A DNA stretch of 63,782 nucleotides, counting the filler, from an uncultured Methanosarcinales archaeon (GTDB taxonomy: Archaea > Nanobdellota > Nanobdellia > Woesearchaeales > B54-G15), in assembly GCA_964519225.1 (NCBI GenBank). It is 3 parts of 3 records of this genome, joined end to end, with 100 filler letters (N's around TTAATTAATTAA, not from the genome) between each part and the next. Parts side by side here need not be neighbours in the genome. Positions count along the whole stretch, not along the records: positions 1 to 28,016 come from CAZFJK010000010.1; 2 more parts are not named here. One strand, written 5' to 3'. Of the stretch, positions 1 through 61,483 are shown piece after piece (position 1 is the stretch's first letter; each line of letters begins with the position of its first letter). The position numbers were made by a program, and so were the translations under genes. Below the pieces are notes generated by a model, which saw nothing but the letters and a program-made list of their open reading frames with translations, was not told the DNA's origin and searched no databases.

Positions 1-110
1 CATTGGTTCATGAGGAACTGAGAAAGTTACTCAAAAGAGTACATCCAACCAAGACCATGCCAAAAGCAACAAAACAAATGGCAGAGGACTTGTGGGATGA
101 CTTGATATAC
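1..110 (+). repeat. Terminal direct repeat, copy 1 (matches 27907-28016)
   Basis: 106/110 identical; mismatches at positions 29, 42, 49 and 56. Confidence 0.97.
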
Positions 111-148: not shown

Positions 149-667
149 ATGAAACTAAGCAAAATAAAAAGGAATAAGAAAGGTTCTGTGCAGGACTTGC
201 TCTTGATAGGCGTAAGCTTGTTTGTGCTGTCATTGGTTGTTCTGATATGCTTCAGGATTTCAACCTCGCTCAACACAGAGTTTCAGGCAAACGATAATAT
301 TGATTCTTACGGCAAGGCAGCTCACCAGCAGATAACCAACATGTATCCTGGCATCATAGACAACTCATTCATATTTGTCACTGTAATACTTTCAATAGGT
401 GCTTTAATCCTGGCAGCCTTGGTCAGGATTCATCCAATCTTTTTGCCAATATACATCATTGCCTGGATATTTGTCATATTCATGTGCTCTATATTTTCAA
501 ATGCTTACCAGGAAATGGCTGCCAATCCTGACCTTTCAGCACTTGCAGCACAGATGACATTCATGAACCAGGTAATGACCACCCTGCCTTTTATTGTTGG
601 CATAGTGGGTGCTTTGCTTGCTATTGTAATGTATAAGGCTTACAGGAGTGAACAATATGGATATTAA
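149..667 (+). CDS. Membrane protein with class III (pilin-like) leader; putative virion or morphogenesis protein
   Basis: KRNKKG|SVQDLLLIGV followed by about 4 hydrophobic segments; in the structural block. Confidence 0.7.
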   Translation: MKLSKIKRNKKGSVQDLLLIGVSLFVLSLVVLICFRISTSLNTEFQANDNIDSYGKAAHQQITNMYPGIIDNSFIFVTVILSIGALILAALVRIHPIFLPIYIIAWIFVIFMCSIFSNAYQEMAANPDLSALAAQMTFMNQVMTTLPFIVGIVGALLAIVMYKAYRSEQYGY

Positions 668-3600
668 GAAAACAATGTTAATGCTTGGATTTGTTCTGTT
701 AGTCTTGCTTAGCTCTGGATCTGTCTGTGCTGATGAATTATTAGCTTCCAACTCAACTGGAACAGATACAGCTTCTACAAGTTATACATTAGTAAAAACT
801 TTTGATTTTTCAACTTCACCATATATTGTTACTAAACATATAAATAACATTAGAAATGGAAATCCAAGTGGAACTGTTTATTGCAAAGTTATATGGACTT
901 ATACAGATGATTCAACTGCTTATGTAGAAAATAGTGTAACTGGAATTACTGGTGTAGTAAAAACTTATACAAATCCAAATACAACAATAAGAGTTAAATC
1001 TATTGGAGTATGGTTAAGGGTTTCAGCTTATGGAGGCTATGAATCGGCAGATGAAGTATGGGGTTATGCAGGTCCAACACAACCCCCAGAGTTCACAATA
1101 TACCCTGAAACAGCATACACAGCAGATGACCTGTATGCAGACTTCACAAGCACAGACGCAGACAACGACACGATAGTCTTCAACTGGAACTGGTCGAACG
1201 GGACAACGGAAGCAATAAGGTTTATTGATGACGGCTCACTTGTGAGCTATTACGCAATGGATGGCACGGAAGCAAGCACAGTTTATGATTACTCTGGCTC
1301 AAATGACGGAACAATGTCTGGCTACACGCAGAACAACGGAGCAAGAAACGGCGGAGTTGAAATAAGCACAGATGACGGCAAGTATGGCTATGGTGCTGGG
1401 TTTGATGGGGTTGATGATTATGTTGAAGTTCCTCATGATAGTTCTATATCTTTTGATAATACTATTAGTAGTTCTTTTTCTTGGTGGATGAAATGTGATG
1501 AACAAACTGGTGCTTCAAGAATATTAAACAAAGGCATTAATTATTATGGATGGATTGATGACCATGATGGAGCAGAGAAGAACGACTATAAGTTTGTTAT
1601 ATATGATGGTTCTAATTCTGGTATAGTTTATGCAGATAATGTATGCGATAATAGTTGGCATAATGTAGTGTTTGTAGTTGATAGAACACAGCAGAAGATT
1701 TTTAGTTATGTTGATGGAACTTTAGATGATACAGATGATGATATTTCTGATGTAGGGGATTGTAGCAGTGTAGATAATCTGTTTATAGGTGCAAGTGGAG
1801 GAACTGCCTATTTTTTCAACGGCTCTCTTGACGAAGTCCGCATATGGAACAAAGCACTCACGCAGGAAGAAATACAGGCAGAGATGGAAAGCTCAAACCC
1901 AGTAAAGGGCGATGGACTGGTGGCAAGCTACTCTTTTGAACAGCATAACTCAACGCACGCACTTGACACAAACCATCTGGTAAAGGGCGAAATAGCCGAA
2001 GGAATTACTTTTGATGGGGTTGATGATAAAATATTAATTCCTGATTATTCAATGAATCATACAAGCGGAACTTTTTGTTCTTGGGTTAATTATAATGATA
2101 GAGGTCCATCAAATAGAGAGCCAATATTTGGACATAAGAATTCAGGAAAAACTTGGAATGGACCTACTCTTGTTTTTTATAGTTCAACAAGTTTAAGGTT
2201 TTATGATTATGATGATGTTTATATTGTAGCGACTTTACCTATATTAGGTGAATTTGCTCATTATTGTATTACATGGAACTCTACAGGCAGTTCTATTTTT
2301 GTTAATGGTGAATTAAAGAGTTCAGGAGGTGTATCTCCAAATATGAATAACCCAAATAGTCTTAGGATAGGTTCAACTTATGTTAGTGGAGATAAGTATA
2401 TTCATGGCTCAATAGACGAAGTCCAGATATACAACAGAAGCCTTTCAGAGAGCGAAATAAAAGCCCTGTATGAAGGCTCAAGGCATTACTCAAACGGCAC
2501 TCACGCAGAGCTGGACAGCTCACTTACAAGCACATTTGACACATGGACTTTGGATGTCACGCCTTACGACTACTTAAATGCTGGGACATCAAGGACAGCC
2601 TATGCTTACATTGACGACACGCTTGCACCTGAAATAACCACAGATGACATAAGCCTCAACAAGACAATAGTGTACTCAAGCGACAACCTTACTGCACAGA
2701 TAAATGCAACTGACAACTTTCTTTACAGCATAAATGTTTCAATAGACGGCACATCCATATTCAACACATCAGGCATTGGTGCAACAACTTATGTTTATAA
2801 CCTAAGCCAGAACATGAGCAGTTATTCAGTTGGAGAGCACAACATATCATTCAGAGCCTGCGACGGACACACTTCTGCGGAACTAAAAGACAAGTGGGAT
2901 TATGATGTAGGGCTAAGCGGACTGACATTCAAGGATGACAAGGACAAGAACAAATGGTACAGGATTAATCCAACAAACAATGACATATTTGAAAGGATTT
3001 CAACCACAAGACTGAAAGACAGGTATGATTTTAGATACCAAAAAAGCAGGGTTGGTGAACTGTTCTCAAAATCAACTGAGTACAGCTTCATAGTTGAAAG
3101 CACAGAATATATTGACATCATAAATCCACAGCAGACTGACTACAAATACAAGGACAAATACAAAGCTTGGCTTGTAATAAAGGACATAGGGCAGAACGGC
3201 AGGTGGATTGACTTTAATTTAAAGGATGCGCCTGAAGCAAAATACAATATAAAGAGGCTGAGCCTAACAAAAGTCAGGGTAACTATATCAAACATCCCAA
3301 GAAACATGAAAGAGCTTGTGTTTGAGTCAACAGGAGAGTTGAACTGTGTTACAGAATATTACTTGTTTTATGTTTACAATTACACGACAAGCTACACAAC
3401 ACCTGTTCTTGAAACATCAAGCCAGACATTCACTTTAAACATAACAAAAGATTCTGATTACATTACAGATGCCAATGCAACTCTGCACTGGAACGGCACA
3501 GCTTACACACCGACAGAAACGACAAACGGAACTTATTTTTATTATACAAAAACAATTACAATGCCTTCAGTAGATGCAAACACAAATGTAACATTCAATT

Positions 3601-4787
3601 GGACTTACACTTTAGAAGGCGAAGAAAATACCACAAGTAGAACAGCAAGCGAAACCCAGCTAATATATAATATAGACATGGATGACTGCTCGACATACAA
3701 TATAACTGCATTAAACTTTTCGCTTGTAGAGGAAAGCAACAACGCTTCAATCAACGGCAGCATGGACTTCACATTCAGTCTGGCACAGGAAGGCACAACG
3801 ATAAATTACTCAAAATCTGTGACTAACAGAAACTGGACTGCGTTCTGCATACCAAACAATAACATAAATTTTACTGCACAGCTGCAGTCAGAATACTCTG
3901 CAGAAGGTTATGATGCACACACATACTTTGCATACAACCTTGCAATAAATAATGAAACACAACATATAACTTACTATCTCACAAACGGCACGACAATTGT
4001 TGAGTTCACTGTATTGGACCAGAACGGCGATGAAGTGGAAAATGCTTATATCAAAGTAAAAAAGTATGACATCGGCACAGGAACTTACAAGACCATTGAA
4101 ACCCTGAAGACTGACCAACAGGGCAAAGCATTGGGAAACATAATATTAGATACTGCATGGTATGAGTTTGTTGTTGAGTATGGCGGAACAGTTTACCTTG
4201 AAGATGGACCTACAAAGATAACAACAACATCAAGAACATTCAGGATAAACCTTTTGTCAGATTTCTTTGACAGATACACAGATGTAATATATGGCATTAC
4301 ATCAAGCCTTAACTACACAGATTCAACTGGCAACTTCAGGTTCACATGGAGCGACCCAGACGGAAATTACCATTACGGCTGTTTGAAAGTTACAAAAGAG
4401 AGTCTTGCTGGCAACACCTTAATCAATGATACCTGCGTTCAGTCAACAGCTGGAACAATATTAGTCAATATTAATGACAGTGGTTCTGTCAACGGAACTT
4501 ATGTCGCAGTCGGCTACATAAAGTTTGATGAGCCTTATGTCCTGCAGGTATTGAGGAAGACTTGGGGAAGCTTGTCAGAAACATTCGGAAATGAAGGTTT
4601 GTTTTATGCCTTCTTGATAATACTTACCGTTGCAATGGTTGGAATATTCGCACCAAAGATTGCAATGATTTTGGCTGTCATAGGGCTTGTGTTCAGCAGC
4701 ATATTAGGGTTCTTCAATATGAACCCAAGCTGGATAATAGCTTTGGTAATCGCAGCTGGGCTAACAATATACAGGATGAGGGATTAA
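648..4787 (+). CDS. Large secreted LamG/concanavalin-like domain protein with C-terminal TM helices; putative receptor-binding protein
   Basis: Signal peptide; two LamG cores (FDGVDD...GSLDEVRIWN and GSIDEVQIYN); many N-x-S/T sequons; about 3 C-terminal TM helices. Confidence 0.85.
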   Translation: MNNMDIKKTMLMLGFVLLVLLSSGSVCADELLASNSTGTDTASTSYTLVKTFDFSTSPYIVTKHINNIRNGNPSGTVYCKVIWTYTDDSTAYVENSVTGITGVVKTYTNPNTTIRVKSIGVWLRVSAYGGYESADEVWGYAGPTQPPEFTIYPETAYTADDLYADFTSTDADNDTIVFNWNWSNGTTEAIRFIDDGSLVSYYAMDGTEASTVYDYSGSNDGTMSGYTQNNGARNGGVEISTDDGKYGYGAGFDGVDDYVEVPHDSSISFDNTISSSFSWWMKCDEQTGASRILNKGINYYGWIDDHDGAEKNDYKFVIYDGSNSGIVYADNVCDNSWHNVVFVVDRTQQKIFSYVDGTLDDTDDDISDVGDCSSVDNLFIGASGGTAYFFNGSLDEVRIWNKALTQEEIQAEMESSNPVKGDGLVASYSFEQHNSTHALDTNHLVKGEIAEGITFDGVDDKILIPDYSMNHTSGTFCSWVNYNDRGPSNREPIFGHKNSGKTWNGPTLVFYSSTSLRFYDYDDVYIVATLPILGEFAHYCITWNSTGSSIFVNGELKSSGGVSPNMNNPNSLRIGSTYVSGDKYIHGSIDEVQIYNRSLSESEIKALYEGSRHYSNGTHAELDSSLTSTFDTWTLDVTPYDYLNAGTSRTAYAYIDDTLAPEITTDDISLNKTIVYSSDNLTAQINATDNFLYSINVSIDGTSIFNTSGIGATTYVYNLSQNMSSYSVGEHNISFRACDGHTSAELKDKWDYDVGLSGLTFKDDKDKNKWYRINPTNNDIFERISTTRLKDRYDFRYQKSRVGELFSKSTEYSFIVESTEYIDIINPQQTDYKYKDKYKAWLVIKDIGQNGRWIDFNLKDAPEAKYNIKRLSLTKVRVTISNIPRNMKELVFESTGELNCVTEYYLFYVYNYTTSYTTPVLETSSQTFTLNITKDSDYITDANATLHWNGTAYTPTETTNGTYFYYTKTITMPSVDANTNVTFNWTYTLEGEENTTSRTASETQLIYNIDMDDCSTYNITALNFSLVEESNNASINGSMDFTFSLAQEGTTINYSKSVTNRNWTAFCIPNNNINFTAQLQSEYSAEGYDAHTYFAYNLAINNETQHITYYLTNGTTIVEFTVLDQNGDEVENAYIKVKKYDIGTGTYKTIETLKTDQQGKALGNIILDTAWYEFVVEYGGTVYLEDGPTKITTTSRTFRINLLSDFFDRYTDVIYGITSSLNYTDSTGNFRFTWSDPDGNYHYGCLKVTKESLAGNTLINDTCVQSTAGTILVNINDSGSVNGTYVAVGYIKFDEPYVLQVLRKTWGSLSETFGNEGLFYAFLIILTVAMVGIFAPKIAMILAVIGLVFSSILGFFNMNPSWIIALVIAAGLTIYRMRD

Positions 4788-5664: not shown

Positions 5665-5940
5665 GTGAAACTCATGAATAAAAAGGGTCAAATCGAAGCT
5701 TTAGTTCCTTTAGTGATTTCGCTGGTGGTCATAGGAATACTGTTAGTTGTAGCATTCCTTGTATTTGCACAGGTTGCAGCTAACTCATCAGTCGCAGCAG
5801 ATGGTAATGCAACAGCAGCAATACAAGCAGTGCAGGAAGCAACTGATGACATTCCAGGATGGTTACCAATAATTGTTGTTGTAGTCATAGGAGCTCTGTT
5901 GATTGGACTTGTCAGTTTCCTTAGGGCAAGAGCAAGATGA
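5665..5940 (+). CDS. Putative major capsid protein 1 (two hydrophobic helices, spindle-virus-like) with class III leader
   Basis: NKKG|QIEALV leader; helix-loop-helix with NSS/NAT sequons in the loop; basic C-terminus; own promoter and strong RBS. Confidence 0.75.
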   Translation: MKLMNKKGQIEALVPLVISLVVIGILLVVAFLVFAQVAANSSVAADGNATAAIQAVQEATDDIPGWLPIIVVVVIGALLIGLVSFLRARAR

Positions 5941-6211
5941 GAAAAATGAACAATAAAGGACAAATTGACGCTTTGCAACCACTGATAGTTGCTTTGGTTG
6001 TAATAGCTATTGTCTTGGTTGTTGGTTTTTTGATTTTTGCCGAAGTTCAGGATCAGATAGTCAGCATCGACAGTGTTGATGAAACAAACACATCAACTTG
6101 GAGCTATGGTTACAATTCATCACAAGATGTAACCAGCGCAATGGCAGACATACCAGGATGGCTTCCAATCATAGTCGTGGTTGTCATAGGAGCTCTGTTG
6201 ATTGGACTTGT
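5884..6211 (+). repeat. 29-bp identical direct repeat shared by the two capsid paralogues
   Basis: GTCATAGGAGCTCTGTTGATTGGACTTGT at 5884-5912 and 6183-6211. Confidence 0.95.
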
Positions 6212-6239
6212 GTCATTCCTAAGAAAACAGGCGAGATAA
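5937..6239 (+). CDS. Putative capsid protein 2, paralogue of the preceding gene
   Basis: NNKG|QIDAL leader; C-terminal DIPGWLPIIVVVVIGALLIGLVSFLR identical to paralogue; ATGA overlap. Confidence 0.75.
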   Translation: MRKMNNKGQIDALQPLIVALVVIAIVLVVGFLIFAEVQDQIVSIDSVDETNTSTWSYGYNSSQDVTSAMADIPGWLPIIVVVVIGALLIGLVSFLRKQAR

Positions 6240-6300: not shown

Positions 6301-6540
6301 TTAAGAAACAGTAATGTTTAACACATCAGTAGGTATGAACCTTTCAGTCTCATACTTGTCAATACGAACAAAGCACATGCAGTTGTTTCGGATGAAAGCT
6401 GAATAATGCTTATTGCACTTTTTTATGCCTAACTCGTAGCCTTGCCTTGCTCCAACAAGCAGGGCAATGGCTATTAATATCGCAATTAAAATACACAGGA
6501 TTAAATTATCTCCTTTATTTCTTTTTTTTTCTGATTTCAT
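6301..6540 (-). CDS. Small membrane-anchored Cys-containing protein
   Basis: One TM helix; C-x9-C-x-C motif. Confidence 0.55.
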   Translation of the reverse strand: MKSEKKRNKGDNLILCILIAILIAIALLVGARQGYELGIKKCNKHYSAFIRNNCMCFVRIDKYETERFIPTDVLNITVS

Positions 6541-6672: not shown

Positions 6673-7158
6673 TCAAATAGTGCCTCCGAACATCAGCTTT
6701 CCAATGAAATATCCAAAGTTGTTGAAAAAGTCCCTTCCACAGATGATAAAGTAAAAGCAAACCAATAAAATCATTATGCCAAGCTGAAACTCAGTCCAGA
6801 TTCTGTTTCTGTAATATATGTAACAAAAAAGTATGAATGCCCAAATCATAGCCTGCTTTACAAATATTATCATTGTTCTTGCTGCTTCAGGGTGAACCTC
6901 CCAATCATTCATCTTTGCCTGAACAACATTTGCTTCCCTCAGTGCAGTCAACACTTTTGGTTGCTCCTTGACAACCATCAGGTTTGTCAAAGCTACTGCA
7001 CCAAAGTTCATGATTATAATAAGCACAACAGCTATGTCCATTAGCCTGAACATAGCCTTGTGGCTTGAATAAAGCCGATTGTGCTCATTTCTCTGCTGCT
7101 GCCTTAACTCGTACCCTATTTGCTTTTTCCTGGCTTCAAGTGTTATTAACTCGTTCAT
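6673..7158 (-). CDS. Multi-TM membrane protein
   Basis: Three hydrophobic helices; overlapping operon arrangement. Confidence 0.6.
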   Translation of the reverse strand: MNELITLEARKKQIGYELRQQQRNEHNRLYSSHKAMFRLMDIAVVLIIIMNFGAVALTNLMVVKEQPKVLTALREANVVQAKMNDWEVHPEAARTMIIFVKQAMIWAFILFCYIYYRNRIWTEFQLGIMILLVCFYFIICGRDFFNNFGYFIGKLMFGGTI

Positions 7159-7466
7159 TGTTCTGTGTGTGGCAACTCTTCTGCTACTTCCTTCTGCTCT
7201 GTCTGCTCTACTCTCTCTGCAAATTCTGTCTCATCTTTTGGTTCTATTGGTGGCAGTTCGTCAGGAATGTCCTGCTTTGGCGGTTTAAGGTTGTCCAAAT
7301 ACATCTCAAGCTTCTCATCCATCAGCCTGATTATGTCATCCTTGAACTTCCTGCTGCTGTAAACATACCAGACCAACACTACAACAACTGCCAGTGCCAC
7401 TGATGCAACAACAAGGAACGAAAGCGTTATGCTGTCTGCTGTTATTACCATCTTACTCCTCCACAA
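7155..7466 (-). CDS. Single-TM protein with acidic tail
   Basis: N-terminal TM helix; E/P-rich C-terminus; probable start at MVITAD. Confidence 0.55.
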   Translation of the reverse strand: MWRSKMVITADSITLSFLVVASVALAVVVVLVWYVYSSRKFKDDIIRLMDEKLEMYLDNLKPPKQDIPDELPPIEPKDETEFAERVEQTEQKEVAEELPHTEQ

Positions 7467-7665
7467 CTATATTCTTATCTTCTTCTCTGCCTTTCTCTGC
7501 TTCCTTTGGTTTCTCTTCCTTTGGCTTTGTTTCCACTTCTGCCCTTAGTTTCTCAAACAGAGCAAACTTTGCCTGTCCGTTTGTCACTTTCAGAAACATA
7601 TTGAGCTCTTCATCCCTGCTCAACACTTCCAAAAGCAATGTTTTTTCTTCTTTGTTCAATTGCAT
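7453..7665 (-). CDS. Hypothetical protein
   Basis: GGAGG RBS upstream; operon context. Confidence 0.55.
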   Translation of the reverse strand: MQLNKEEKTLLLEVLSRDEELNMFLKVTNGQAKFALFEKLRAEVETKPKEEKPKEAEKGREEDKNIVVEE

Positions 7666-7933
7666 TTTTTTGCCTCCTAATATTTTAATCTGAATTGAAT
7701 AATACCATGATGCCCCATATTATTGTTATGGCACATGCCATCAACGCCCAGTATGGATTTCTTAGTCCAACTATTCCTATTATTATGAATACTAAGCCTT
7801 TGAGTTTCATTGATTATCCAACTCCCTCAGCCAATCAATGATCCTGTGGATGTTGAACATGATTGTTCCGCCAAAAACTATTACAATCAATATTACAAGC
7901 TTCTGGAAAAAGTCAAGCTGGATATTTGGTGGT

Positions 7934-8176
7934 TCAATCATTTTGCTTTTCCTTTATAATTGCCTTGATTATTGCAATGGTCTTTCTTATTTTTTTGAGG
8001 TTAAATTTTGTTTCACGAGTGTAATTCATCCTTCGCTTGCTGCCACTCATAAGGCTGATTGTCTTTTTTATCAATTCTTTCTGCTGTTCTTCCAACCTTG
8101 ATTTCAGCTTCTCAATGCTAAGCTCACGCAGTTCATTCTTTAAGTTGTTGAATGTGTGTTTGTATTCTTGGTCCAT
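7934..8176 (-). CDS. Ribosomal protein uL29-like protein (virus-encoded)
   Basis: ELRELSIEKLKSRLEEQQKEL...G...NLKKIRKTIAIIKAIIKEK follows the uL29 pattern ELR.LS.EEL..KL.EL.KEL...G...IRK.IARI.T.I.E. Confidence 0.6.
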   Translation of the reverse strand: MDQEYKHTFNNLKNELRELSIEKLKSRLEEQQKELIKKTISLMSGSKRRMNYTRETKFNLKKIRKTIAIIKAIIKEKQND

Positions 8177-8182: not shown

Positions 8183-8938
8183 TTATTTTGTTAAAATTAA
8201 AATTTTTCTTATCATTTTTACATAACTTGAAGTTGTACAATATGATTCAGCAGTATATTTAATATTTCTGTGACCTAAAAACTTAGATAATAATTCTATT
8301 GGCATTCCATTATCATAATAAAACACAGCCCCAGAATGTCTAAGTGAATTAAGGTTAATATCTTTCTTTAAGACTTTTTTTGATAATTTTTTAATTTTTT
8401 TTTCTATTGACCTTACCCCAAGAATTTTAAAATTATCGGTCAAAAACTCATTTGTTTGTTTGATTATTGGATTAATAATAGGAATAACCCTGTTTTTTAT
8501 TTTTATTAATCCTCTTTCAATATCAACATCTTTTTTCTTAATATTAGCAATCTCATTTGCTTTCAAACATAATAAGAAACCAAGTTTAATATAAAATTTA
8601 GTATCCTCATTTTTTGATTTAGAAATTAATAAATTAAACTCTTCAAAACTTATGATATTTAATCTGTTTCTTTTTTCTTCATAATAATTTACTCTCACAA
8701 ACTCTGGGGTATTAATATCCCCCTTTCTATGAACTTTAATATGACATTTGTAACAAATAGTGATTAAATCATTTAAAGTTTCATTAAATAAATTATTATA
8801 AGTAATATGGTGAACTATTAAATCTTTTTTAGAATTACAGAACTGACAAGTATAATTATCCCTATTTAGAACTTTTCTTCTTAGAATGTTCCACTTTTTA
8901 CTTTTTATATATTTCTGAAATTTTTCTCTCTCATTCAT
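8183..8938 (-). CDS. HNH endonuclease fused to a degenerate tyrosine recombinase catalytic domain
   Basis: RDNYTCQFC...VHH...NDLITICYKCHIKVH, then LKANEI / SLRHS / LGH...Y. Confidence 0.85.
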   Translation of the reverse strand: MNEREKFQKYIKSKKWNILRRKVLNRDNYTCQFCNSKKDLIVHHITYNNLFNETLNDLITICYKCHIKVHRKGDINTPEFVRVNYYEEKRNRLNIISFEEFNLLISKSKNEDTKFYIKLGFLLCLKANEIANIKKKDVDIERGLIKIKNRVIPIINPIIKQTNEFLTDNFKILGVRSIEKKIKKLSKKVLKKDINLNSLRHSGAVFYYDNGMPIELLSKFLGHRNIKYTAESYCTTSSYVKMIRKILILTK

Positions 8939-8939
8939 T

Positions 8940-9098
8940 TTACAACTCTTTTAACACAACATCACCATCCATTTGCATATTGAAAGCCAATACTTTGCCT
9001 TTTTTCCAACCTTTGAGCTTCATAATCTCAAAAGGTATTGTAATTCTATATTGCTTTTTACCAGTTATTTTTTGTATACTTTCTTGAATCTTAGGCAT
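8940..9098 (-). CDS. AbrB/SpoVT-type DNA-binding protein (52 aa, not in ORF track)
   Basis: Own translation MPKIQESIQKITGKKQYRITIPFEIMKLKGWKKGKVLAFNMQMDGDVVLKEL; GGAGG RBS. Confidence 0.8.
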   Translation of the reverse strand: MPKIQESIQKITGKKQYRITIPFEIMKLKGWKKGKVLAFNMQMDGDVVLKEL

Positions 9099-9331: not shown

Positions 9332-9940
9332 TTAGTCATTTATTAATGGCTTTTTTTCTATTTCTTCCCTTAAATCTTCAGATGATAAGTCAGAATACCA
9401 CTCAAGTATTGTTTTGATAGTATCTCCAGTATTCTGCTGAACAAACTTAATATCCCTTCCTGCTTTCCTGCTCAACCTAATGAAAGTATGCCTCAGCCAA
9501 TGAGAGCCAACTATGTGAGCATAAGGAAAATCTATCTTTTTGCACCATCTTTTTAATATCCTGTTAGCTGTCTTTTCAGAAAAAGGAAACAATCTCTTGT
9601 CCTTAATGCCTTCTATCTGCCTCTGCTTGAGCCACATCTTCAAGCTTGACCTTACAAACTCCGGCCAATATACAAATCTCCACTTATCTTTCTTATGATC
9701 GTAAGTATATGTCCTGTTCTCTTTCCAGTCAATATGCACAATTTCTGTGTTAACAACATCAGAAACCCTCAGGCCTGTCTGGCTGTGATACAAGATATAT
9801 GTCCTGTCCCTTATATCATCAACTACTTGGTATAACTTTTTCAAATATTGCTGTGGAATATACTTGTCCCCTTTGCTGATTTTATTAGACACTACTAAAG
9901 ATTTTTCTTGTTTTACATCATTTTTTTGCATCATTTTCAT
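9332..9940 (-). CDS. Short tyrosine recombinase/integrase (catalytic domain only)
   Basis: TGLRVSD, K, HWLRHT, TGD...WY motifs; 202 aa with no arm-binding domain. Confidence 0.85.
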   Translation of the reverse strand: MKMMQKNDVKQEKSLVVSNKISKGDKYIPQQYLKKLYQVVDDIRDRTYILYHSQTGLRVSDVVNTEIVHIDWKENRTYTYDHKKDKWRFVYWPEFVRSSLKMWLKQRQIEGIKDKRLFPFSEKTANRILKRWCKKIDFPYAHIVGSHWLRHTFIRLSRKAGRDIKFVQQNTGDTIKTILEWYSDLSSEDLREEIEKKPLIND

Positions 9941-13756: not shown

Positions 13757-13809
13757 GTTAATTACCACAAGATATTGTTAATTACCACAGGGTATTTTTC
13801 ATTACAACT
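13757..13809. repeat. Iteron-like direct repeats with 20-bp period
   Basis: GTTAATTACCACA at 13757 and 13777, plus a degenerate third copy. Confidence 0.8.
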
Positions 13810-14007: not shown

Positions 14008-16374
14008 TTATAAAACCTCTTCAACTTCAGCAATATCCACTTTTCTTTGAACATCTACCCAGTACCAAACCCTATTATTCCCTTCTTGAATCCTATCTGG
14101 ATAAGCCCCATTGTATTCCATTACTCCCTTTATGGTCTTGTCTCCTTTTGGCCTTCCAAGATTGTTCTGTTTGCACCAGTTGACATAATCTTTCCTTATC
14201 AAGTCTTTTTCAGTGCGGCCTTCACCAAACACTAACATTTCATTACAATACGCCTCAAAGCTGTTAGACTTCCTTATATACATCTTTTTTATTTGGTTAG
14301 TGCTTTTGTTATAGCTGAAAAAACCTTGCTTCTCAAGCCGTTTAAAGCCCTCTATAGCCCAATTAAGCAAACCCGAAAGTTCCTGCCTTGTTGTGATTTT
14401 CTTTATTATGTCTGGGTCTCTTAACTTTATATTGCCATTTTTGCCATCCATATCCTTTTCATCAACAAATTTCATAGGGTAATTGATTAATATGATTCTA
14501 TCATAAAAAGCATCACTGCCATCATAACTTATTGGGAGCTCATTAAGGCCAAATATTAATTTTGCATAGTTTGTGAATTTAATTGGTTCTAAGAATTTTC
14601 TGTTTGCTTCCTGTAAATCTCCTCCGCTTAATGATTTGAGTATATTTGAGTTGGTTATTGCATTCTTTCCTATATCTCCAGAAATGTTAATTAGTTTCTT
14701 ATGCAATGAAACCTTTGTAAACTCATTGTTTGAAAGATCATCAATAGAAACTTCTGAACAGTTTTCAATACCTATAAGGCTTTTGAGCAAATTAAGTGTA
14801 ACACTTTTGCCGTTTCTTCCAACTCCTTCCAAAATAAAAATATGATGGTATTTATATTCTCTTAACAAAGCAAAACCAAATATTTCCTGCATTAACACAA
14901 TGTCCTCCTTTGAACTAAGTACCTCGCTAAAGAATTTCTTGCATTCAGGACAATCTGCACTTTCATCAAAATAAACAGGAAGCTTTGCAAAAAACTTATA
15001 TTTTGGGTCAAAATCCATTAACTGGCCACTTTTTAAGTTTAAAATACCATTTTCGACAGGGATTAAGTATTCTGGCTTTGTTTCTTTGAATAAATCCTCT
15101 TGTTTTATATAACTCCTTATTTTTATTTTTTCACATACTTGGTTTATAAAATAAGTTGTGTAATTCTCATTAAGTATGTTATCAACATACTCTTTTATTG
15201 TTGTTATCCCTTCTGGAATATATATCCCATTTTGGTATATCCAAACTTCAGGATTTTTGTCGCTTCTTGTTGTATAAACTTTGTGTTCTTTTAAAAAAAG
15301 ATTTGCCAGGAGTTCGGCAGCTTTCTTTTTCTTATTCAAAATCATTAATTGGATTATATTCTGCTTTGTTATTTCAGAATCATTGTTTTGTTGTTTTGTC
15401 TCTTTCTCGTTAATAAGGCCTTTCTTAACAGCAAGATTATATGCAACCTCCAGAGCTTTTTTATCCCCTTTAATCTTGCTTAGCCCTCTGCCCTTGTGTG
15501 GTGTTCCTGCATCTTCGCAGCTGGCATATCCAGCTTCAACGCAAAGGTATTGCACAGCATTAAGAGAAACCATATGCCGCCAGCAGTGGCCTAATGAACC
15601 ATCACTGCTTAAACTGAAATTACTCCTCGTTTCACTTTCATGCAATGGATGGCTTACTCTTTTGCTCTGCGGAATTAATCCAACAATATCAGAAACCTTT
15701 AATTTGAACAACTCATCATATTTTCCGCTTGTATAACCCTTAAATTCCTCTTTCTGCTTTATTTTAGTCTCAATTTCAATGTTTTCCCTTTGCTTATCTT
15801 TAAAGAATTGCGGCAAGTCTTCAAAACTCATTAGTTTTGGCTGCAAGGCATCCTTAACTGTGTAATAACCGGCATCTTGGTTATTATTGTTTTCAGTAGG
15901 CACAAAAGAGCCAGGTGATAGTACATATTGGTTATTACTCCTCATTTCTCCGGAATCTGTCGGCATGTTGATTTTTGCAGTGTCATCCTTGTTCCATCCA
16001 AAGAAATGCCATCCTTCTCTTTTCCTGCTTGTTACTGTTAATGTATTTTTTGGCAACTGGTCAAAATATTTTTTATCATCAATATCTCCAATAATTAAAA
16101 TATCATCTTTTCTTGCACTTATTCCAATGTTATAGCCTTGCTTTATGTGTTCAATGCATTGCTCCTTGCTTAATCTTGCTGATTTATGATGCCAAGAACC
16201 ATTGCTTGATTGGTCTATTCTTAATATGGCTGTTGGGCTTGGGTCTTTTCTGTTTGGCTTGCATGGAAAAAACCAAGGGGTATAATCTTCTGGAGCATTC
16301 TGCATAAGTAAAGCATAAAACTTTTCAAATTCCTGAATGCATTTATTTATATCTTTCTCCATCTGACATTCCAC
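14008..16374 (-). CDS. Primase-polymerase / D5-like SF3 helicase replication protein
   Basis: Prim-pol motifs DIDD and GWHFF; His/Cys Zn-like region; D5_N (IPVENGILNL); Walker A GVGRNGKS. Confidence 0.92.
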   Translation of the reverse strand: MECQMEKDINKCIQEFEKFYALLMQNAPEDYTPWFFPCKPNRKDPSPTAILRIDQSSNGSWHHKSARLSKEQCIEHIKQGYNIGISARKDDILIIGDIDDKKYFDQLPKNTLTVTSRKREGWHFFGWNKDDTAKINMPTDSGEMRSNNQYVLSPGSFVPTENNNNQDAGYYTVKDALQPKLMSFEDLPQFFKDKQRENIEIETKIKQKEEFKGYTSGKYDELFKLKVSDIVGLIPQSKRVSHPLHESETRSNFSLSSDGSLGHCWRHMVSLNAVQYLCVEAGYASCEDAGTPHKGRGLSKIKGDKKALEVAYNLAVKKGLINEKETKQQNNDSEITKQNIIQLMILNKKKKAAELLANLFLKEHKVYTTRSDKNPEVWIYQNGIYIPEGITTIKEYVDNILNENYTTYFINQVCEKIKIRSYIKQEDLFKETKPEYLIPVENGILNLKSGQLMDFDPKYKFFAKLPVYFDESADCPECKKFFSEVLSSKEDIVLMQEIFGFALLREYKYHHIFILEGVGRNGKSVTLNLLKSLIGIENCSEVSIDDLSNNEFTKVSLHKKLINISGDIGKNAITNSNILKSLSGGDLQEANRKFLEPIKFTNYAKLIFGLNELPISYDGSDAFYDRIILINYPMKFVDEKDMDGKNGNIKLRDPDIIKKITTRQELSGLLNWAIEGFKRLEKQGFFSYNKSTNQIKKMYIRKSNSFEAYCNEMLVFGEGRTEKDLIRKDYVNWCKQNNLGRPKGDKTIKGVMEYNGAYPDRIQEGNNRVWYWVDVQRKVDIAEVEEVL

Positions 16375-18953: not shown

Positions 18954-19017
18954 ATCATACCTTTTCATATTAAAATCATCATACTTCATCATACCTTATC
19001 ATACTTCATCATACTTT
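18954..19017. repeat. Tandem 10-bp repeats (ATCATACYTY)
   Basis: ATCATAC at 18954, 18978, 18988, 18998 and 19008. Confidence 0.9.
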
Positions 19018-27884: not shown

Positions 27885-28016
27885 ATGGTAAGCCATACAA
27901 GGAACACATTGGTTCATGAGGAACTGAGAAAGTTCCTCAAAAGAGTATATCCAAACAAGACAATGCCAAAAGCAACAAAACAAATGGCAGAGGACTTGTG
28001 GGATGACTTGATATAC
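27885..28016 (+). CDS. 57-aa protein spanning the circular junction (continues to position 152)
   Basis: MVSHTRNTLVHEELRKFLKRVYPNKTMPKATKQMAEDLWDDLIY|GKRIRTKYKDKFK*; TGA at 150-152 overlaps the ATG at 149. Confidence 0.75.
27907..28016 (+). repeat. Terminal direct repeat, copy 2
   Basis: Matches positions 1-110. Confidence 0.97.
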
Positions 28017-28116
28017 NNNNNNNNNNNNNNNNNNNNNNNNNNNNNNNNNNNNNNNNNNNNTTAATTAATTAANNNNNNNNNNNNNNNNNNNNNNNNNNNN
28101 NNNNNNNNNNNNNNNN
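28017..28116. other. Artificial contig spacer
   Basis: N-run with TTAATTAATTAA six-frame stop linker. Confidence 0.99.
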
Positions 28117-34415: not shown

Positions 34416-35567
34416 TTATCCCGTCAGCTTTACACCAAAAACCCTGAGCGATTCTATTGCTATCATTTTTTCTTCGTCAGTTGGAATAACAAAAACCTTT
34501 ACTCTGCTGCTATTCTTGCTGATCACCCCTTCTTTGCCAATAACTCGTGCATTTTTCCTATCATCAATAAGAACACCAAACTGAGGAAGATGGCTGCTTC
34601 TCTTTCTTACAAGCGGAACATTCTCGCCAATGCCTGCCGTAAAAACAATAGCGTCTGTTTTTTCGAGAATTCCAAGATATGCACTTATGTATTTTCTAAC
34701 CCTGTAGCAAAACATATCAAACGCAAGTTTGCATCTTTTTTTCTGCTTCATGCACTTCAAAATTAACCTCATGTCTTTTCCTACCCCGCTTATTCCAAGC
34801 AAGCCGCTTTTCTTATTCAGCATTTTATCAAGCGAGTCAGCATCCATTCCCTTTCTGAGCAGATGTATTAATAATCCTGCATCAATATCTCCGCACCTCG
34901 TAGCCATCATCAATCCTTCAAGTGGCGTTAAACCCATGCTCGTATCAATGCTTTTTCCTTTTGCTATTGCAGTAATGCTGCAACCGGCACCAAGATGGCA
35001 TGTTATTGCATTCAATCTCTCAAACTTCTTTCCGAGAAGAAAAGCGCATCTCTCTGCAACGTACTTGTGCGAAGTCCCATGAAAACCATAGCGCCTTATA
35101 CCTTCCTTAACACATTCATAAGGAATAGCATAACAATAAGCGTATTCAGGTAATGTTTGGTGAAAAGCGGTATCAAAAACAGCAACATTAACTGCTTTCG
35201 GAAGGTATTTCATCGCACCCCTAATTCCGGCAAGATTCACAGGATTGTGAAGCGGAGCAAGTTCAACATATTTTTCAATCTGTTTCAGCAATCGCTTATC
35301 TATTTTCTTCGACTCTGCAATTTCACCGCCGTGAACAACCCTATGCCCAACAACAGCGATAGTATCTGTATCCATTCCTTTTTTACTGATTTCCTTCAGC
35401 ATCTCCTTTATGCCTTCTTCATGCGTTCTTACTTTCCCGCCTTTTTCTCCTATTCTTTCAATCAACCCCCTCAGCTCTTCATGCAATGCTTTCCCAGAAA
35501 CCAGATAAACCCTGTATTTTATCGATGTACTGCCGCAATTAATGACCAAAACCCTCAGCTCTGACAT
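34416..35567 (-). CDS. ackA: Acetate kinase
   Basis: INCGSTSIK, GHRVVHGG, APLHN, FDTAFHQT, YGFHGTSH, FTAGIGEN. Confidence 0.97.
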   Translation of the reverse strand: MSELRVLVINCGSTSIKYRVYLVSGKALHEELRGLIERIGEKGGKVRTHEEGIKEMLKEISKKGMDTDTIAVVGHRVVHGGEIAESKKIDKRLLKQIEKYVELAPLHNPVNLAGIRGAMKYLPKAVNVAVFDTAFHQTLPEYAYCYAIPYECVKEGIRRYGFHGTSHKYVAERCAFLLGKKFERLNAITCHLGAGCSITAIAKGKSIDTSMGLTPLEGLMMATRCGDIDAGLLIHLLRKGMDADSLDKMLNKKSGLLGISGVGKDMRLILKCMKQKKRCKLAFDMFCYRVRKYISAYLGILEKTDAIVFTAGIGENVPLVRKRSSHLPQFGVLIDDRKNARVIGKEGVISKNSSRVKVFVIPTDEEKMIAIESLRVFGVKLTG

Positions 35568-35570
35568 CTT

Positions 35571-36524
35571 CTATCTGCTTTTCGCAAGAACAGAAACTAT
35601 AGCTATAATTCCGATTATGTCCTCTACTTTTGCTCCTCTTGAAAGATCGCTCAGCGCTTTGTTAAAACCCTGAAGTATCGGACCGTAAGCAAATGCCTTT
35701 CCAAAATACTGTGTTAGCTTATAAGCAATATTTCCTGCATCAAGATCAGGAAAGATGAGAACATTTGCCCTTCCAGCCACTTTGCCGAGATCACCTTTTA
35801 TCTTGCGCTTAGCAACATCAAGCCTTAAAGCAGCATCAGCTTGTAATTCACCATCTATCGCTAATCCAAACCTCTTTCCTTTTTTCTGTGCAATTTTAGT
35901 CGCCTTAATCACTTTATGCACATCAGGATGCTCAGCGCTTCCTTTAGTCGAAAAGCTGAGCATAGCTATCCTCGGCTTTATACCAAGCAGCTTCTTCACG
36001 TTTATCCCGGTCATCACAGCAATATCAGCAAGCTCTTCTGCTGTTGGGTTCGGATTTACTGAAGCATCTGCATAAACATACTGCCCGAATCCAGGAACAT
36101 CCATGATAAAGAAGCTAGAAGGAATCCTGATTCCTTTTTTCAATCCAATAATCTGTTTGCTAACCGCAATAAAATCACCGCTGGTATAAACACAACCGCC
36201 AACCATTCCATCAACATATCCAAGCTTGAGCAATAAAGCAGCAGAAATCAATTTATCTTTAACTATTGCCTCCGCGGTTCTTGCTTTTACTTTACTTAGT
36301 TTAATGTAAGCTTTTGTAAGCTCTTTTTGTATAGAAGAACAATCGATGTATTTAATTCCGCATTTCTTGCTTAGAGCAACGTCTTCTTCAATCCAGCAAG
36401 GAAAAACAGGAACAGCAAAATCCTTGGCTTTTTTGGCAGCCTTCTGTATGCGTTCATCATAGAATTCCGGCAAAACAATCTTCGCTTTAGTCTTCTTTGC
36501 CTTCTGTATAAAACGCTCGGTCAT
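35571..36524 (-). CDS. pta: Phosphate acetyltransferase
   Basis: AMLSFSTKGS, DGELQADAA, FPDLDAGNIAYK, DLSRG. Confidence 0.97.
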   Translation of the reverse strand: MTERFIQKAKKTKAKIVLPEFYDERIQKAAKKAKDFAVPVFPCWIEEDVALSKKCGIKYIDCSSIQKELTKAYIKLSKVKARTAEAIVKDKLISAALLLKLGYVDGMVGGCVYTSGDFIAVSKQIIGLKKGIRIPSSFFIMDVPGFGQYVYADASVNPNPTAEELADIAVMTGINVKKLLGIKPRIAMLSFSTKGSAEHPDVHKVIKATKIAQKKGKRFGLAIDGELQADAALRLDVAKRKIKGDLGKVAGRANVLIFPDLDAGNIAYKLTQYFGKAFAYGPILQGFNKALSDLSRGAKVEDIIGIIAIVSVLAKSR

Positions 36525-55267: not shown

Positions 55268-55367
55268 NNNNNNNNNNNNNNNNNNNNNNNNNNNNNNNNN
55301 NNNNNNNNNNNTTAATTAATTAANNNNNNNNNNNNNNNNNNNNNNNNNNNNNNNNNNNNNNNNNNNN
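55268..55367. other. Artificial contig spacer
   Basis: N-run with TTAATTAATTAA. Confidence 0.99.
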
Positions 55368-59178: not shown

Positions 59179-59179
59179 A

Positions 59180-61452: not shown

Positions 61453-61483
61453 AAACTAAAAACAGCTGTTATTTGCTTCCAAA

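What the first reader, a model, noticed from the sequence alone, without database searches (positions are those of the whole stretch)
7934..8176. Virus-encoded ribosomal protein uL29 homologue
Seen: 80-aa ORF with the uL29 helix pattern and a slightly longer loop. Known: uL29 lies at the exit tunnel beside the SRP/Sec docking site; some viruses encode ribosomal proteins such as bS21 and bL12, but I do not know of a characterised archaeal-virus uL29. Inference: it may alter co-translational targeting in a virus rich in membrane proteins.
Basis: partly seen in the sequence, partly recalled or inferred. Interest (0 to 1): 0.72.

Follow-up and report, generated by a model that had tools for sequence, protein, structure and literature searches.

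The report
Mobile-element copy of ribosomal protein uL29
A 28-kb virus-like mobile element of tiny DPANN archaea carries its own diverged copy of ribosomal protein uL29, which sits at the ribosome's exit tunnel, placed at the head of a string of small membrane-protein genes.

Summary
The ORF is real: 7934-8176, minus strand, 80 aa. It is a genuine but diverged homologue of ribosomal protein uL29. Alone it scores below Pfam's cut-off (PF00831 17.7 vs 24.5 bits). It belongs to a small conserved family. All 19 aligned members hit PF00831 (best 3.1e-9), and the family profile finds solved uL29 chains at 5.6e-7. hhalign against canonical uL29 gives 98.95%. The AlphaFold model has the uL29 three-helix fold. 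Differences are a conserved 12-residue N-terminal extension and a basic 7-residue loop insert.

The window is three contigs joined by N linkers. The gene lies on the first, a 28,016-nt element bounded by 110-nt direct repeats. This element has integrases, a D5 primase-helicase and no cellular genes; a syntenic relative lies in a Woesearchaeota MAG. "Virus" is plausible, not shown. dN/dS is 0.22.

Ribosome incorporation and any effect on membrane-protein targeting are inferred only. I found no described archaeal virus- or element-encoded uL29.

The parts
7934..8176 (-). uL29-like gene, 80 aa. Residues 1-12 are a family-specific N-terminal extension (EYK[YH]TFNNLK). Predicted helices are 9-18, 21-44 and 54-79. 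Residues ~45-57 form a basic loop with a 7-residue insert. Helix 3 carries the conserved IRKxIAxIKxII motif.
7807..7941 (-). 44-aa single-pass membrane protein. Its start overlaps the uL29-like stop by 8 nt. 73% identical to the L001 orthologue.
7685..7810 (-). 41-aa single-pass membrane protein. Overlaps the previous gene by 4 nt. 83% identical to the L001 orthologue.
7453..7665 (-). 70-aa acidic soluble protein, unknown family. 83% identical to the L001 orthologue.
7155..7466 (-). 103-aa protein with an N-terminal membrane helix. 79% identical to the L001 orthologue.
6673..7158 (-). 161-aa protein with three hydrophobic segments. 89% identical to the L001 orthologue.
6301..6540 (-). 79-aa single-pass membrane protein, the last gene of the co-directional run. 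77% identical to the L001 orthologue.
8183..8938 (-). 251-aa fusion of an HNH nuclease (N-terminal) and a tyrosine recombinase (C-terminal). Its stop lies 6 nt upstream of the uL29-like start. It sits in a 22-26% GC island. This upstream position is variable: the Woesearchaeota relative has a 157-aa protein (DPPY motif, read as a DNA methylase but not scanned) and a ~210-nt spacer there.
9332..9940 (-). 202-aa tyrosine integrase (PF00589, E=5e-16).
1..110 (.). Left copy of the 110-nt direct repeat at the exact end of contig 1.
27907..28016 (.). Right copy of the 110-nt direct repeat (96% identical, 4 mismatches) at the exact other end of contig 1. The element is therefore circular/terminally redundant or att-flanked, with a unit length of 27,906 nt.
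28017..28116 (.). Artificial linker N44-TTAATTAATTAA-N44 marking the end of the element contig. A second linker lies at 55268-55367.
5665..6239 (+). Two tandem paralogous 91- and 100-aa proteins, each with N- and C-terminal hydrophobic helices. They are candidate hairpin capsid proteins (a lead only).
648..4787 (+). 1379-aa protein with concanavalin-A-like lectin (Laminin_G_3) domains and a C-terminal membrane anchor. Weakly similar to the giant ORF35 of Nitrosopumilaceae spindle-shaped virus.
14008..16374 (-). 788-aa D5-type primase-helicase, the replication gene of the element. In the phage collection the match covering most of the query (52%) is ORF2 of Nitrosopumilaceae spindle-shaped virus.

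Best explanation
The ORF encodes a diverged paralogue of large-subunit ribosomal protein uL29. It is carried by a discrete ~27.9-kb mobile element, probably a temperate virus and possibly an integrative plasmid, of Woesearchaeota-type DPANN archaea.

Shown:
- Homology to uL29, and the uL29 three-helix fold in the model.
- Retention of the most conserved uL29 positions: ELR..S..EL in helices 1-2, a loop glycine, and RK.IA.IKT in helix 3.
- Uniformly basic charge across the family.
- Purifying selection.
- Location outside any ribosomal-protein cluster.
- Position as the first gene of a conserved, overlapping run of six small genes, five of them membrane proteins.

Inferred, most likely mechanism: during element activity the protein is built into, or exchanged onto, host 50S subunits at the uL29 site beside uL23 at the polypeptide exit. 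Its extra basic loop and conserved N-terminal extension then change the exit-site surface. Next step, weakest: this favours co-translational handling of the element's own membrane proteins.

The confidence given (0.5) is for the whole chain up to ribosome binding. Homology on a mobile element alone I put near 0.9, and the effect on membrane-protein targeting near 0.15.
For: Homology:
- PF00831 matches the full profile, at E 0.0037 for the window protein.
- 19 of 19 family members hit PF00831 at E<=1, best 3.1e-9.
- Family member P0022 passes the NCBIfam L29 equivalog cut-off, 27.3 vs 22.6 bits.
- The family profile against PDB gives a best E of 5.6e-7. 59 of the 60 rows shown are uL29/L35, bacterial, archaeal and eukaryotic, all co-linear and near full-length.
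- hhalign of family vs canonical uL29 gives 98.95%, E 9.9e-18, 63 columns.
- In a profile search of 5.8 billion proteins, scores grade from the family through intermediates into canonical uL29. 67 of the 77 hits carry PF00831.

Fold:
- The AF2 model has pLDDT 78 and helices 9-18, 21-44 and 54-79.
- All 50 listed Foldseek PDB matches are chains of ribosome entries. At least 16 are chains that names uL29/L35, with target-normalised TM 0.72-0.86 for bacterial or archaeal-sized chains.

Real, constrained gene:
- 16 cluster representatives at E<=0.001.
- dN/dS 0.22 vs the L001 orthologue; neighbours 0.06-0.29.

RNA-binding character:
- Family pI is 9.67-10.19. The loop segment carries +4 and helix 3 carries +5.

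Mobile-element context:
- 110-nt repeats sit at both contig ends.
- The contig length of 28,016 is confirmed independently.
- Integrases, D5 primase-helicase and a PAPS-reductase-family protein are present.
- The gene order is syntenic in Woesearchaeota MAG contigs L001/L002.
- Other family members sit on contigs of at most 31,453, 28,043 and 20,507 nt.

Operon position:
- 8-nt and 4-nt gene overlaps downstream.
- The same order is seen in L001.
Against: - The window protein itself is below both curated cut-offs (Pfam 17.7 < 24.5; TIGR00012 6.8 < 22.6).
- All Foldseek E-values are >=0.05, with none <=0.001. Short helical hairpins are common folds.
- The canonical set used for hhalign was retrieved through shared 5-residue words, mostly IAVIKT, so that score is partly circular. 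Pfam and PDB are the independent tests.
- P0022 alone finds no PDB chain at E<=0.01.
- The gene is the most diverged of the syntenic block (57.5% aa identity vs 73-91% for neighbours; dS 1.38 vs 0.4-1.0). This fits cassette exchange or a role less constrained than a core ribosomal one.
- The N-terminal extension and loop insert have no counterpart in cellular uL29 and could clash with rRNA.
- uL29 is not among the loosely bound, exchangeable proteins that Mizuno et al. list as typical of viruses (bS21, bL12, bL9, bL31, bL33; passages).
- No evidence of any kind here for expression, ribosome association or an effect on targeting.
- Virus status is unproven: no capsid profile hit, and apart from a probably chance match in the lectin-domain giant, the only Walker A motif is that of the D5 helicase.
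Confidence: 0.5

Rival explanations
1. Exapted uL29 fold. The gene descends from uL29 but no longer works in the ribosome. The basic helical hairpin now serves the element in another way: as a nucleic-acid-binding or genome-condensing protein, a regulator of the downstream operon, a virion or assembly component, or a decoy that titrates a host factor that normally docks on uL29.
For: - It is below curated family cut-offs.
- It has a family-specific conserved N-terminal motif and a basic loop insert.
- It is the most diverged gene of the conserved block.
- It is always found away from ribosomal genes.
- Core, early-bound ribosomal proteins are not the kind viruses usually carry (Mizuno 2019 passages).
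Against: - The positions kept are exactly those conserved across bacterial, archaeal and eukaryotic uL29.
- There are no extra domains, and no fused forms were found among proteins of 180-2000 aa (weak evidence).
- dN/dS is as low as for the neighbours.
- No profile points to any other function.
Confidence: 0.35
2. It is simply the cell's own uL29 gene, on a chromosomal contig mistaken for a mobile element.
For: The contig was delivered together with cellular archaeal contigs of similar GC content. One source names a family member 'ribosomal protein L29'.
Against: - No Pfam family typical of cellular housekeeping genes was found among the ORFs of at least 100 aa scanned on contig 1. It holds integrases, HNH, D5 primase-helicase and unknowns.
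- The gene is flanked by an integrase and membrane-protein genes, not by uS3/uS17. The cluster order is recalled knowledge.
- Repeats sit at both contig ends.
- The 7-residue insert and 12-residue extension are absent from all canonical uL29 retrieved.
- The family separates from canonical uL29 in the tree: 18 of 19 together, canonical side 94/88 support.
Confidence: 0.04
3. Chance resemblance: a generic lysine/glutamate-rich helical hairpin with no common ancestry with uL29.
For: - The single-sequence scores are marginal.
- Foldseek E-values are >=0.05.
- BFVD returns many unrelated small helical phage proteins with similar TM-scores.
Against: - The family profile finds uL29 almost exclusively (59 of the 60 rows shown) among 177,635 PDB sequences, at 5.6e-7.
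- 19 of 19 members hit PF00831. The next family, Aida_N, matches 5 of 19.
- Sequences grade into canonical uL29.
Confidence: 0.03

Closest known systems
Cellular ribosomal protein uL29 (Pfam PF00831 Ribosomal_L29; NCBIfam TIGR00012; bacterial rpmC, archaeal L29P, eukaryotic L35)
   Same: - The three-helix architecture.
- Co-linear alignment over the whole domain.
- Conserved ELR..S..EL, loop glycine and RK.IA.IKT positions.
- Basic pI.
   Different: - 12-residue conserved N-terminal extension.
- 7-residue basic insert in the inter-helix loop.
- The LRFQ-type motif after 'EL' is not kept.
- Its own score is below curated cut-offs.
- It is encoded on a mobile element next to integrase and membrane-protein genes instead of in the ribosomal-protein cluster.
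Virus-encoded ribosomal proteins (bS21, bL12, bL9, bL31, bL33, HPF and others; Mizuno et al. 2019, PMC6375957)
   Same: A single ribosomal-protein homologue is carried by a small mobile genome and kept under purifying selection. The idea is that it replaces the host version (abstract, section 7 and passages read).
   Different: - That study's main text has no occurrence of L29/uL29 or 'archaeal'.
- All predicted hosts there were bacterial phyla.
- The proteins it highlights are loosely bound and exchangeable.
- Its Supplementary Table 2, with the full list of proteins, could not be seen. The supplement files held as text mention L29 only as E. coli mass-spectrometry rows.
- Here virus status and incorporation are both untested.
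Phage proteins with a uL29-like fold, e.g. UniProt A0A1Z1LZ61 named '50S ribosomal protein L29 [Serratia phage X20]' in BFVD
   Same: A small viral protein with the same predicted fold (TM 0.70/0.80 over 67 columns).
   Different: - Only 16% identity, and Foldseek E 0.53.
- No sequence match of the window protein to any of 50,697 phage records.
- A bacterial host.
- No paper found under that phage's name.
- Probably an independent case, and its own homology to uL29 was not tested here.
Spindle-shaped archaeal viruses (Nitrosopumilaceae spindle-shaped virus BK067789.1; nanohaloarchaeal DNSV-1/2, bioRxiv 10.1101/2025.02.15.638363, passages only)
   Same: - Two paralogous ~90-100-aa proteins with two hydrophobic helices, next to a giant protein gene.
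- A tyrosine integrase.
- A genome of 20-33 kb.
- D5-type primase-helicase and lectin-domain giant protein weakly similar to ORF2 and ORF35 of BK067789.1.
   Different: - No profile hit to VP1_VP3 or His1_capsid. Atlas similarity is only 0.85/0.82.
- No AAA+ morphogenesis ATPase was found: the only Walker A motif besides a probably chance match inside the lectin-domain giant is that of the D5 helicase.
- None of those virus descriptions mentions a ribosomal protein gene in the passages seen.

Membership tests
uL29 (PF00831 / TIGR00012) | The protein's own score is above the curated family cut-off. | tested here: not met
   PF00831 17.7 bits vs 24.5. TIGR00012 6.8 bits vs 22.6.
uL29 (PF00831 / TIGR00012) | Homology demonstrable at profile level. 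| tested here: met
   - 19 of 19 family members hit PF00831 at E<=1, best 3.1e-9.
- The family profile vs PDB finds uL29 at E 5.6e-7; 59 of the 60 rows shown are uL29.
- hhalign 98.95% (with a partly circular template set).
- Member P0022 is above the TIGR00012 cut-off.
uL29 (PF00831 / TIGR00012) | Short helix 1 plus a long antiparallel helix 2 / helix 3 hairpin. | tested here: met
   The AF2 model has helices 9-18, 21-44 and 54-79, pLDDT 78. All 50 listed Foldseek PDB matches are ribosome chains, TMt up to 0.86, but E>=0.05.
uL29 (PF00831 / TIGR00012) | Conserved helix-3 basic motif ([KR][KR]xIAxI[KR]T). That this is the family signature is recalled; the positions are as seen in the alignments. 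| tested here: met
   The window protein has IRKTIAIIKAI. I67, A68 and I70 are >=90% conserved in the family and align to RKxIAxIxT of solved uL29.
uL29 (PF00831 / TIGR00012) | Gene located in the ribosomal-protein cluster between uS3 and uS17 (recalled knowledge of bacterial and archaeal operons). | tested here: not met
   Its neighbours are an HNH-tyrosine recombinase upstream and small membrane proteins downstream. The Woesearchaeota relative shows the same.
uL29 (PF00831 / TIGR00012) | Physical component of the large subunit at the tunnel exit. | not testable with these tools
   No structure docking or biochemistry was available.
Virus-encoded ribosomal proteins | Encoded on a bona fide viral genome. 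| tested here: inconclusive
   - It is a discrete repeat-bounded 28-kb element with integrases and a D5 primase-helicase.
- The nearest Atlas clusters of two of its proteins are 86-100% viral.
- There is no capsid or packaging profile hit.
Virus-encoded ribosomal proteins | Incorporated into host ribosomes. | not testable with these tools
   This needs expression and ribosome fractionation.
Spindle-shaped archaeal viruses | Hydrophobic alpha-helical hairpin major capsid protein. | tested here: inconclusive
   The 91- and 100-aa paralogues have two hydrophobic helices, like ORF33/34 of BK067789.1. Atlas gives VP1_VP3 0.85 and His1_capsid 0.82. Pfam gives no such hit at E<=10, and there is no tblastn match in phages.
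Spindle-shaped archaeal viruses | AAA+ morphogenesis ATPase (stated as a signature in bioRxiv 10.1101/2025.02.15.638363, passages). | tested here: not met
   Among ORFs of >=100 aa on contig 1, a Walker A pattern occurs only in the D5 helicase and, probably by chance, inside the lectin protein. There is no ATPase family in Pfam or PHROGs apart from D5.
Spindle-shaped archaeal viruses | Tyrosine-recombinase integrase. | tested here: met
   PF00589 E=5e-16 (9332-9940) and 9.9e-12 (8183-8938).

The most novel reading that the evidence does not exclude
An archaeal virus or mobile element supplies its own tunnel-exit ribosomal protein. The diverged uL29, translated first from the operon, is built into host 50S subunits. 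Through its added basic loop and N-terminal motif it re-tools the docking surface for SRP, the translocon or nascent-chain factors. Element-specific 'specialised ribosomes' then favour insertion of the element's many small membrane and virion proteins. The unusually deep divergence of this one gene between otherwise similar elements would then reflect adaptation to different host ribosomes.
Probability: 0.12. Interest if true: 0.85.

Novelty: new member of a known kind. Interest (0 to 1): 0.55.

Why it matters
Virus-borne ribosomal proteins known so far are, in the literature I could search, bacterial-virus cases of loosely bound proteins such as bS21 and bL12. A conserved, selected uL29 paralogue on elements of DPANN archaea would extend the phenomenon in three ways: to archaea, to a core protein of the polypeptide exit site, and to hosts with highly reduced genomes.

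uL29, together with uL23, forms the docking platform for SRP, the translocon and chaperones (established knowledge, recalled). A mobile-element version is therefore a natural experiment on whether parasites manipulate co-translational targeting. Ribosome fractionation or cryo-EM can test this directly.

If the protein proves not to be ribosomal, it is a clean example of a ribosomal protein fold recruited for a new job.

Tried and rejected
- Complex prediction of the family alignment with Swiss-Prot RL23_NANEQ (uL23 stand-in): no verdict, score 0.00 vs mark 0.32. This is neither for nor against binding.
- PHROGs: no family for the uL29-like protein at E<=0.01.
- tblastn of the protein against 50,697 phage records: no match at E<=1.
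- A canonical bacterial uL29 (P0038) against phages: 8 unannotated records, several short. These were not followed up and could be host DNA.
- Donor lineage and host from a tree:
  - The canonical uL29 sequences available were unlabelled and chosen by word sharing.
  - The tree has 80 columns. 18 of 19 family members cluster, there is no root, and archaeal vs bacterial origin is unresolved.
  - PDB hits of the family profile and of P0032 mix bacteria and archaea.
  - NCBIfam has one L29 model for both domains.
- P0022 alone against PDB: nothing at E<=0.01.
- Fused or longer forms: none among the 8000 candidates scored of 180-2000 aa, which is weak evidence.
- att site linking contig 1 to contigs 2/3 or to tRNA-Phe: the longest shared exact word is 16 nt, which is chance level.
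- Capsid assignment of the two-helix proteins: no Pfam VP1_VP3 or His1_capsid hit at E<=10, and no tblastn hit.
- NCBIfam on 24 unannotated element proteins: nothing above cut-off.
- Rfam on the whole window: only tRNA-Phe.
- My early reading that the element is integrated in a chromosome was dropped once the N linkers were seen.
A tighter 9-sequence alignment worked.
Full report
**Observation.** The ORF listing shows an ATG-initiated ORF of 80 aa at 7934..8176 on the minus strand (DNA).
- Alone it matches Pfam PF00831 (Ribosomal_L29) over the entire 57-position profile (residues 14-77). The score is only E=0.0037 and 17.7 bits, below the 24.5-bit gathering score.
- NCBIfam's L29 equivalog model gives 6.8 bits, E 6.9.
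- Against PDB sequences, 29 of the 38 rows at E<=10 are uL29/L35 chains. The best E is 0.0043, and a 7-residue gap always opens in uL29 opposite the query's inter-helix loop.

The observation, including the 'slightly longer loop', is correct. On single-sequence evidence the homology is marginal.

**Family and homology.**
- The word-indexed search found 2 close relatives among 4 candidates.
- The exhaustive phmmer search of 1.84 billion cluster representatives found 16 at E<=0.001, 7 of them at E<=1e-10.
- I aligned the 19 sequences (A1). They share a conserved N-terminal EYK[YH]TFNNLK, ELR.LS..L, EL, a loop G..RR..Y..KFN, and helix-3 IRKxIAxIKTII.
- All 19 of 19 hit PF00831 at E<=1, best 3.1e-9. 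The next family, Aida_N, is hit by 5 of 19.
- The family profile searched against 177,635 PDB sequences gives uL29 of Streptomyces at 5.6e-7, then Sulfolobus and Thermococcus uL29 at ~1e-5. 59 of the 60 rows shown are uL29/L35.
- The profile search of the 5.8-billion-protein set gives 77 hits at E<=10 among 2824 candidates. These grade from the family through intermediates (P0020-P0024) into canonical 62-70-aa uL29, and 67 of the 77 carry a precomputed PF00831.
- Of 57 of these scanned with NCBIfam, 53 hit TIGR00012. Family member P0022 is above the cut-off, 27.3 vs 22.6 bits.
- hhalign of 20 family sequences (A5) against 38 canonical ones (A4) gives 98.95% probability, E 9.9e-18, 63 columns and the same 7-residue gap.
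- Caveat: A4 was retrieved via shared 5-residue words, so that number is inflated. Pfam and PDB are the independent tests.
- P0022 on its own finds no PDB chain at E<=0.01.

**Fold.**
- AlphaFold2 with A1 gives pLDDT 78.2 and pTM 0.65. Helices are 9-18, 21-44 and 54-79, with low confidence at residues 1-6 and in the loop.
- Foldseek against PDB: all 50 listed matches are chains of ribosome entries. At least 16 are the very chains names uL29/L35, with target-normalised TM 0.72-0.86 for bacterial and archaeal chains. E-values are 0.05 or worse, and none of the 423 matches reaches 0.001.
- Against BFVD there is again nothing at E<=0.001. Row 3 is a 70-aa protein named '50S ribosomal protein L29 [Serratia phage X20]' (TM 0.70/0.80, 16% identity).

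**What the window is.** The window contains four runs of 44 N that form two N44-TTAATTAATTAA-N44 linkers, at 28017-28116 and 55268-55367. It is therefore three contigs joined artificially.
- Contig 2 (28117-55267) encodes thiolase, acetate kinase, phosphotransacetylase, PCMT, a wyosine radical-SAM enzyme, tRNA methyltransferases, an S2P protease and aIF5A.
- Contig 3 encodes a T2SSE-type ATPase with an intein, and tRNA-Phe.
- Both are cellular and archaeal in character.
- The uL29-like gene is on contig 1 (1-28016). The exact-sequence look-up independently reports this protein on a 28,016-nt contig.

**Contig 1.**
- Its two ends are a 110-nt direct repeat, 1-110 and 27907-28016, with 4 mismatches. 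The element is either circular/terminally redundant or a provirus whose contig broke at its att repeats. The unit length is 27,906 nt.
- It encodes:
  - two tyrosine recombinases (9332-9940, and 8183-8938 with an N-terminal HNH domain);
  - a D5-type primase-helicase (14008-16374);
  - a PAPS-reductase-family protein;
  - a 1379-aa lectin-domain protein;
  - many small unknown proteins.
- No Pfam family typical of cellular housekeeping genes was found among the ORFs of at least 100 aa scanned on contig 1.
- On a crude hydropathy scan, 23 of 56 greedily chosen ORFs have a hydrophobic segment. The greedy choice mis-picked some antisense frames.

**Virus or plasmid?** For a virus:
- Two tandem 91/100-aa proteins have N- and C-terminal hydrophobic helices. 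Their topology and their position beside a giant gene resemble ORF33/34-ORF35 of Nitrosopumilaceae spindle-shaped virus BK067789.1.
- The D5 protein and the lectin protein hit ORF2 (E 5.5e-38) and ORF35 (E 3e-11) of that virus.
- The 30 nearest Atlas clusters of the 100-aa protein have no common Pfam family, and the three shown are 86-100% viral. The nearest Pfam-bearing clusters are VP1_VP3 (0.85) and His1_capsid (0.82), which are leads only.
- A second protein (384 aa) gives only sub-0.9 leads to viral clusters.

Against:
- There is no Pfam hit to those capsid families at E<=10.
- There is no phage-collection match.
- The only Walker A motif besides a probably chance match inside the lectin-domain giant is that of the D5 helicase. 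A preprint on DPANN spindle viruses calls the AAA+ ATPase part of the signature module (10.1101/2025.02.15.638363, passages only).

I therefore call it a virus-like mobile element, not a proven virus.

**Relatives and synteny.** Both are in one Candidatus Woesearchaeota MAG (L001, L002).
- L002's end overlaps L001's start, so they are adjacent.
- L001 repeats the window's order: uL29-like (83 aa), 44-aa, 41-aa, (an extra 59-aa ORF), 71-aa, 106-aa, 161-aa, 84-aa. On the other strand come four two-helix paralogues.
- Upstream the two elements differ. In the window, the HNH-recombinase gene stops 6 nt before the ATG and lies in a 22-26% GC island. In L002 there is a 157-aa protein with a DPPY motif (read as a DNA methylase; not scanned), then ~210 nt of spacer with TATA-like boxes and a GGTG motif.
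- The uL29-like gene thus begins the conserved block.
- Downstream genes overlap it and each other by 8 and 4 nt, which suggests co-translation.
- Other family members sit on contigs no longer than 31,453, 28,043 and 20,507 nt. One member, seen on 30 contigs, is already named 'ribosomal protein L29' by a source.

**Selection.** Between the window and L001, the uL29-like protein is 57.5% identical while its neighbours are 73-91% identical. Nucleotide identity falls to 28-40 of 60 within the gene, against mostly 44-57 of 60 elsewhere.
- Nei-Gojobori estimates for the uL29-like gene are dN 0.30, dS 1.38 and dN/dS 0.22.
- The neighbours give dN/dS 0.06-0.29 and dS 0.40-1.02.
- The gene is therefore under purifying selection but is older or more exchanged than its surroundings.
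- Oddly, its first 33 nt are identical in the two elements.

**Mechanism.**
- Shown: a constrained, basic paralogue of uL29 that keeps the universally conserved uL29 positions and fold. Family pI is 9.67-10.19. In the window protein, the loop carries +4 and helix 3 carries +5.
- From established knowledge (recalled, not tested): uL29 binds 23S rRNA on the subunit surface next to uL23 at the tunnel exit, where SRP, the translocon and nascent-chain factors dock.
- Inferred: the element's protein occupies that site on host ribosomes.
- More speculative: it biases handling of the element's membrane proteins, which the operon position makes attractive.
- Main rival: the fold has been recruited for a non-ribosomal job.
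- A complex prediction with a DPANN uL23 stand-in gave no verdict and counts for nothing either way.

**Literature.**
- Mizuno et al. 2019 (PMC6375957; abstract, section 7 and passages read) report 14 ribosomal proteins in viruses.
  - The main text has no L29/uL29 and no 'archaeal'.
  - All predicted hosts were bacterial phyla.
  - The supplement files held as text mention L29 only as E. coli mass-spectrometry rows. Supplementary Table 2 was not visible.
- Term look-ups within two recent surveys found no 'ribosomal protein' or 'L29': archaeal viral genomes (PMC13465236) and CPR/DPANN viruses (PMC12647753).
- These searches found nothing relevant:
  - 'uL29' + 'virus-encoded' returned only herpesvirus UL29.
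  - 'DPANN' / 'archaeal viruses' / 'ribosomal protein L29': none of the 20 listed papers holds the L29 term.
  - 'phage' + 'ribosomal protein L29' + 'encoded'.
  - 'virus-encoded ribosomal' + 'archaeal virus': 0 papers.
  - 'Serratia phage X20': 0 papers.
- Within that library I found no description of an archaeal virus- or element-encoded uL29.

**Verdict.** The finding is real, and its core claim (a uL29 homologue on a mobile genome) stands. The 'virus' label and the functional idea remain hypotheses. It is a new member of the known kind 'ribosomal protein homologues carried by viruses or mobile elements'. It is notable for being archaeal (DPANN) and for involving an exit-site protein.

Noticed in passing
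window 28017-28116 and 55268-55367: The window is not one molecule. Two N44-TTAATTAATTAA-N44 linkers join three contigs (1-28016, 28117-55267, 55368-63782). Any reading of gene neighbourhood across these points is invalid.
   Followed up: yes
window 8183-9098: A 251-aa ORF fuses an N-terminal HNH nuclease domain to a tyrosine-recombinase catalytic domain. It is followed by a 52-aa AbrB/SpoVT-like ORF (weak hits only). Both lie in a sharp 22-26% GC island, against ~36% for the element. This looks like a secondary insertion just upstream of the uL29-like gene, and the related element has different genes there.
   Followed up: partly
window 8144-8176 vs L001 58-90: The first 33 nt (11 codons) of the uL29-like gene are identical in the two elements, although the rest of the gene has dS ~1.4 and the upstream DNA is unrelated. 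Possible causes are a recombination junction for swapping uL29 cassettes or a nucleotide-level constraint on the translation start. With only two DNA sequences this stays unexplained.
   Followed up: partly
window 5665-6239; L001 2272-3703: The tandem small proteins begin with a KKGQI.AL + hydrophobic helix and end with DIPGWLPIIVVVVIGALLIGLVSFLR + basic tail. There are two copies in the window and four in L001. From memory, the N-terminus recalls archaeal class III (pilin-type) signal peptides and the C-terminus a PGF-CTERM-like sorting signal. Neither was tested.
   Followed up: partly
window 55399-59178: A 1259-aa T2SSE-type (archaellum or pilus) ATPase is interrupted by an intein with LAGLIDADG homing-endonuclease domains (Pfam Intein_splicing, LAGLIDADG_3).
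   Followed up: no
window 34416-36524: Acetate kinase and phosphotransacetylase genes lie side by side on a contig that is otherwise archaeal in character (aIF5A, wyosine enzyme, presenilin-type signal-peptide peptidase). From memory, this pair is uncommon in archaea.
   Followed up: no
window 13757-13796 and 18978-19017: Short tandem repeats lie in intergenic DNA of the element: a 20-nt unit x2 just beyond the 3' end of the D5 primase-helicase gene, and a 10-nt unit ATCATACTTC x4 upstream of the 322-aa ORF. They are candidate iterons or an origin.
   Followed up: no
BFVD entry A0A1Z1LZ61; protein P0091: A Serratia phage X20 protein is already named '50S ribosomal protein L29' in UniProt and has the same predicted fold. 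A member of the present family, seen on 30 contigs, is named 'ribosomal protein L29' by one source. So automatic annotation has seen such genes, though I found no paper on them.
   Followed up: partly
L001 3876-5370: Relative to the window, the Woesearchaeota element has an extra ~1.5-kb insert between the two-helix protein genes and the 108-aa homologue. It encodes a zinc-ribbon-like 42-aa ORF, small membrane ORFs and a 267-aa lysine-rich protein. These were not analysed.
   Followed up: no
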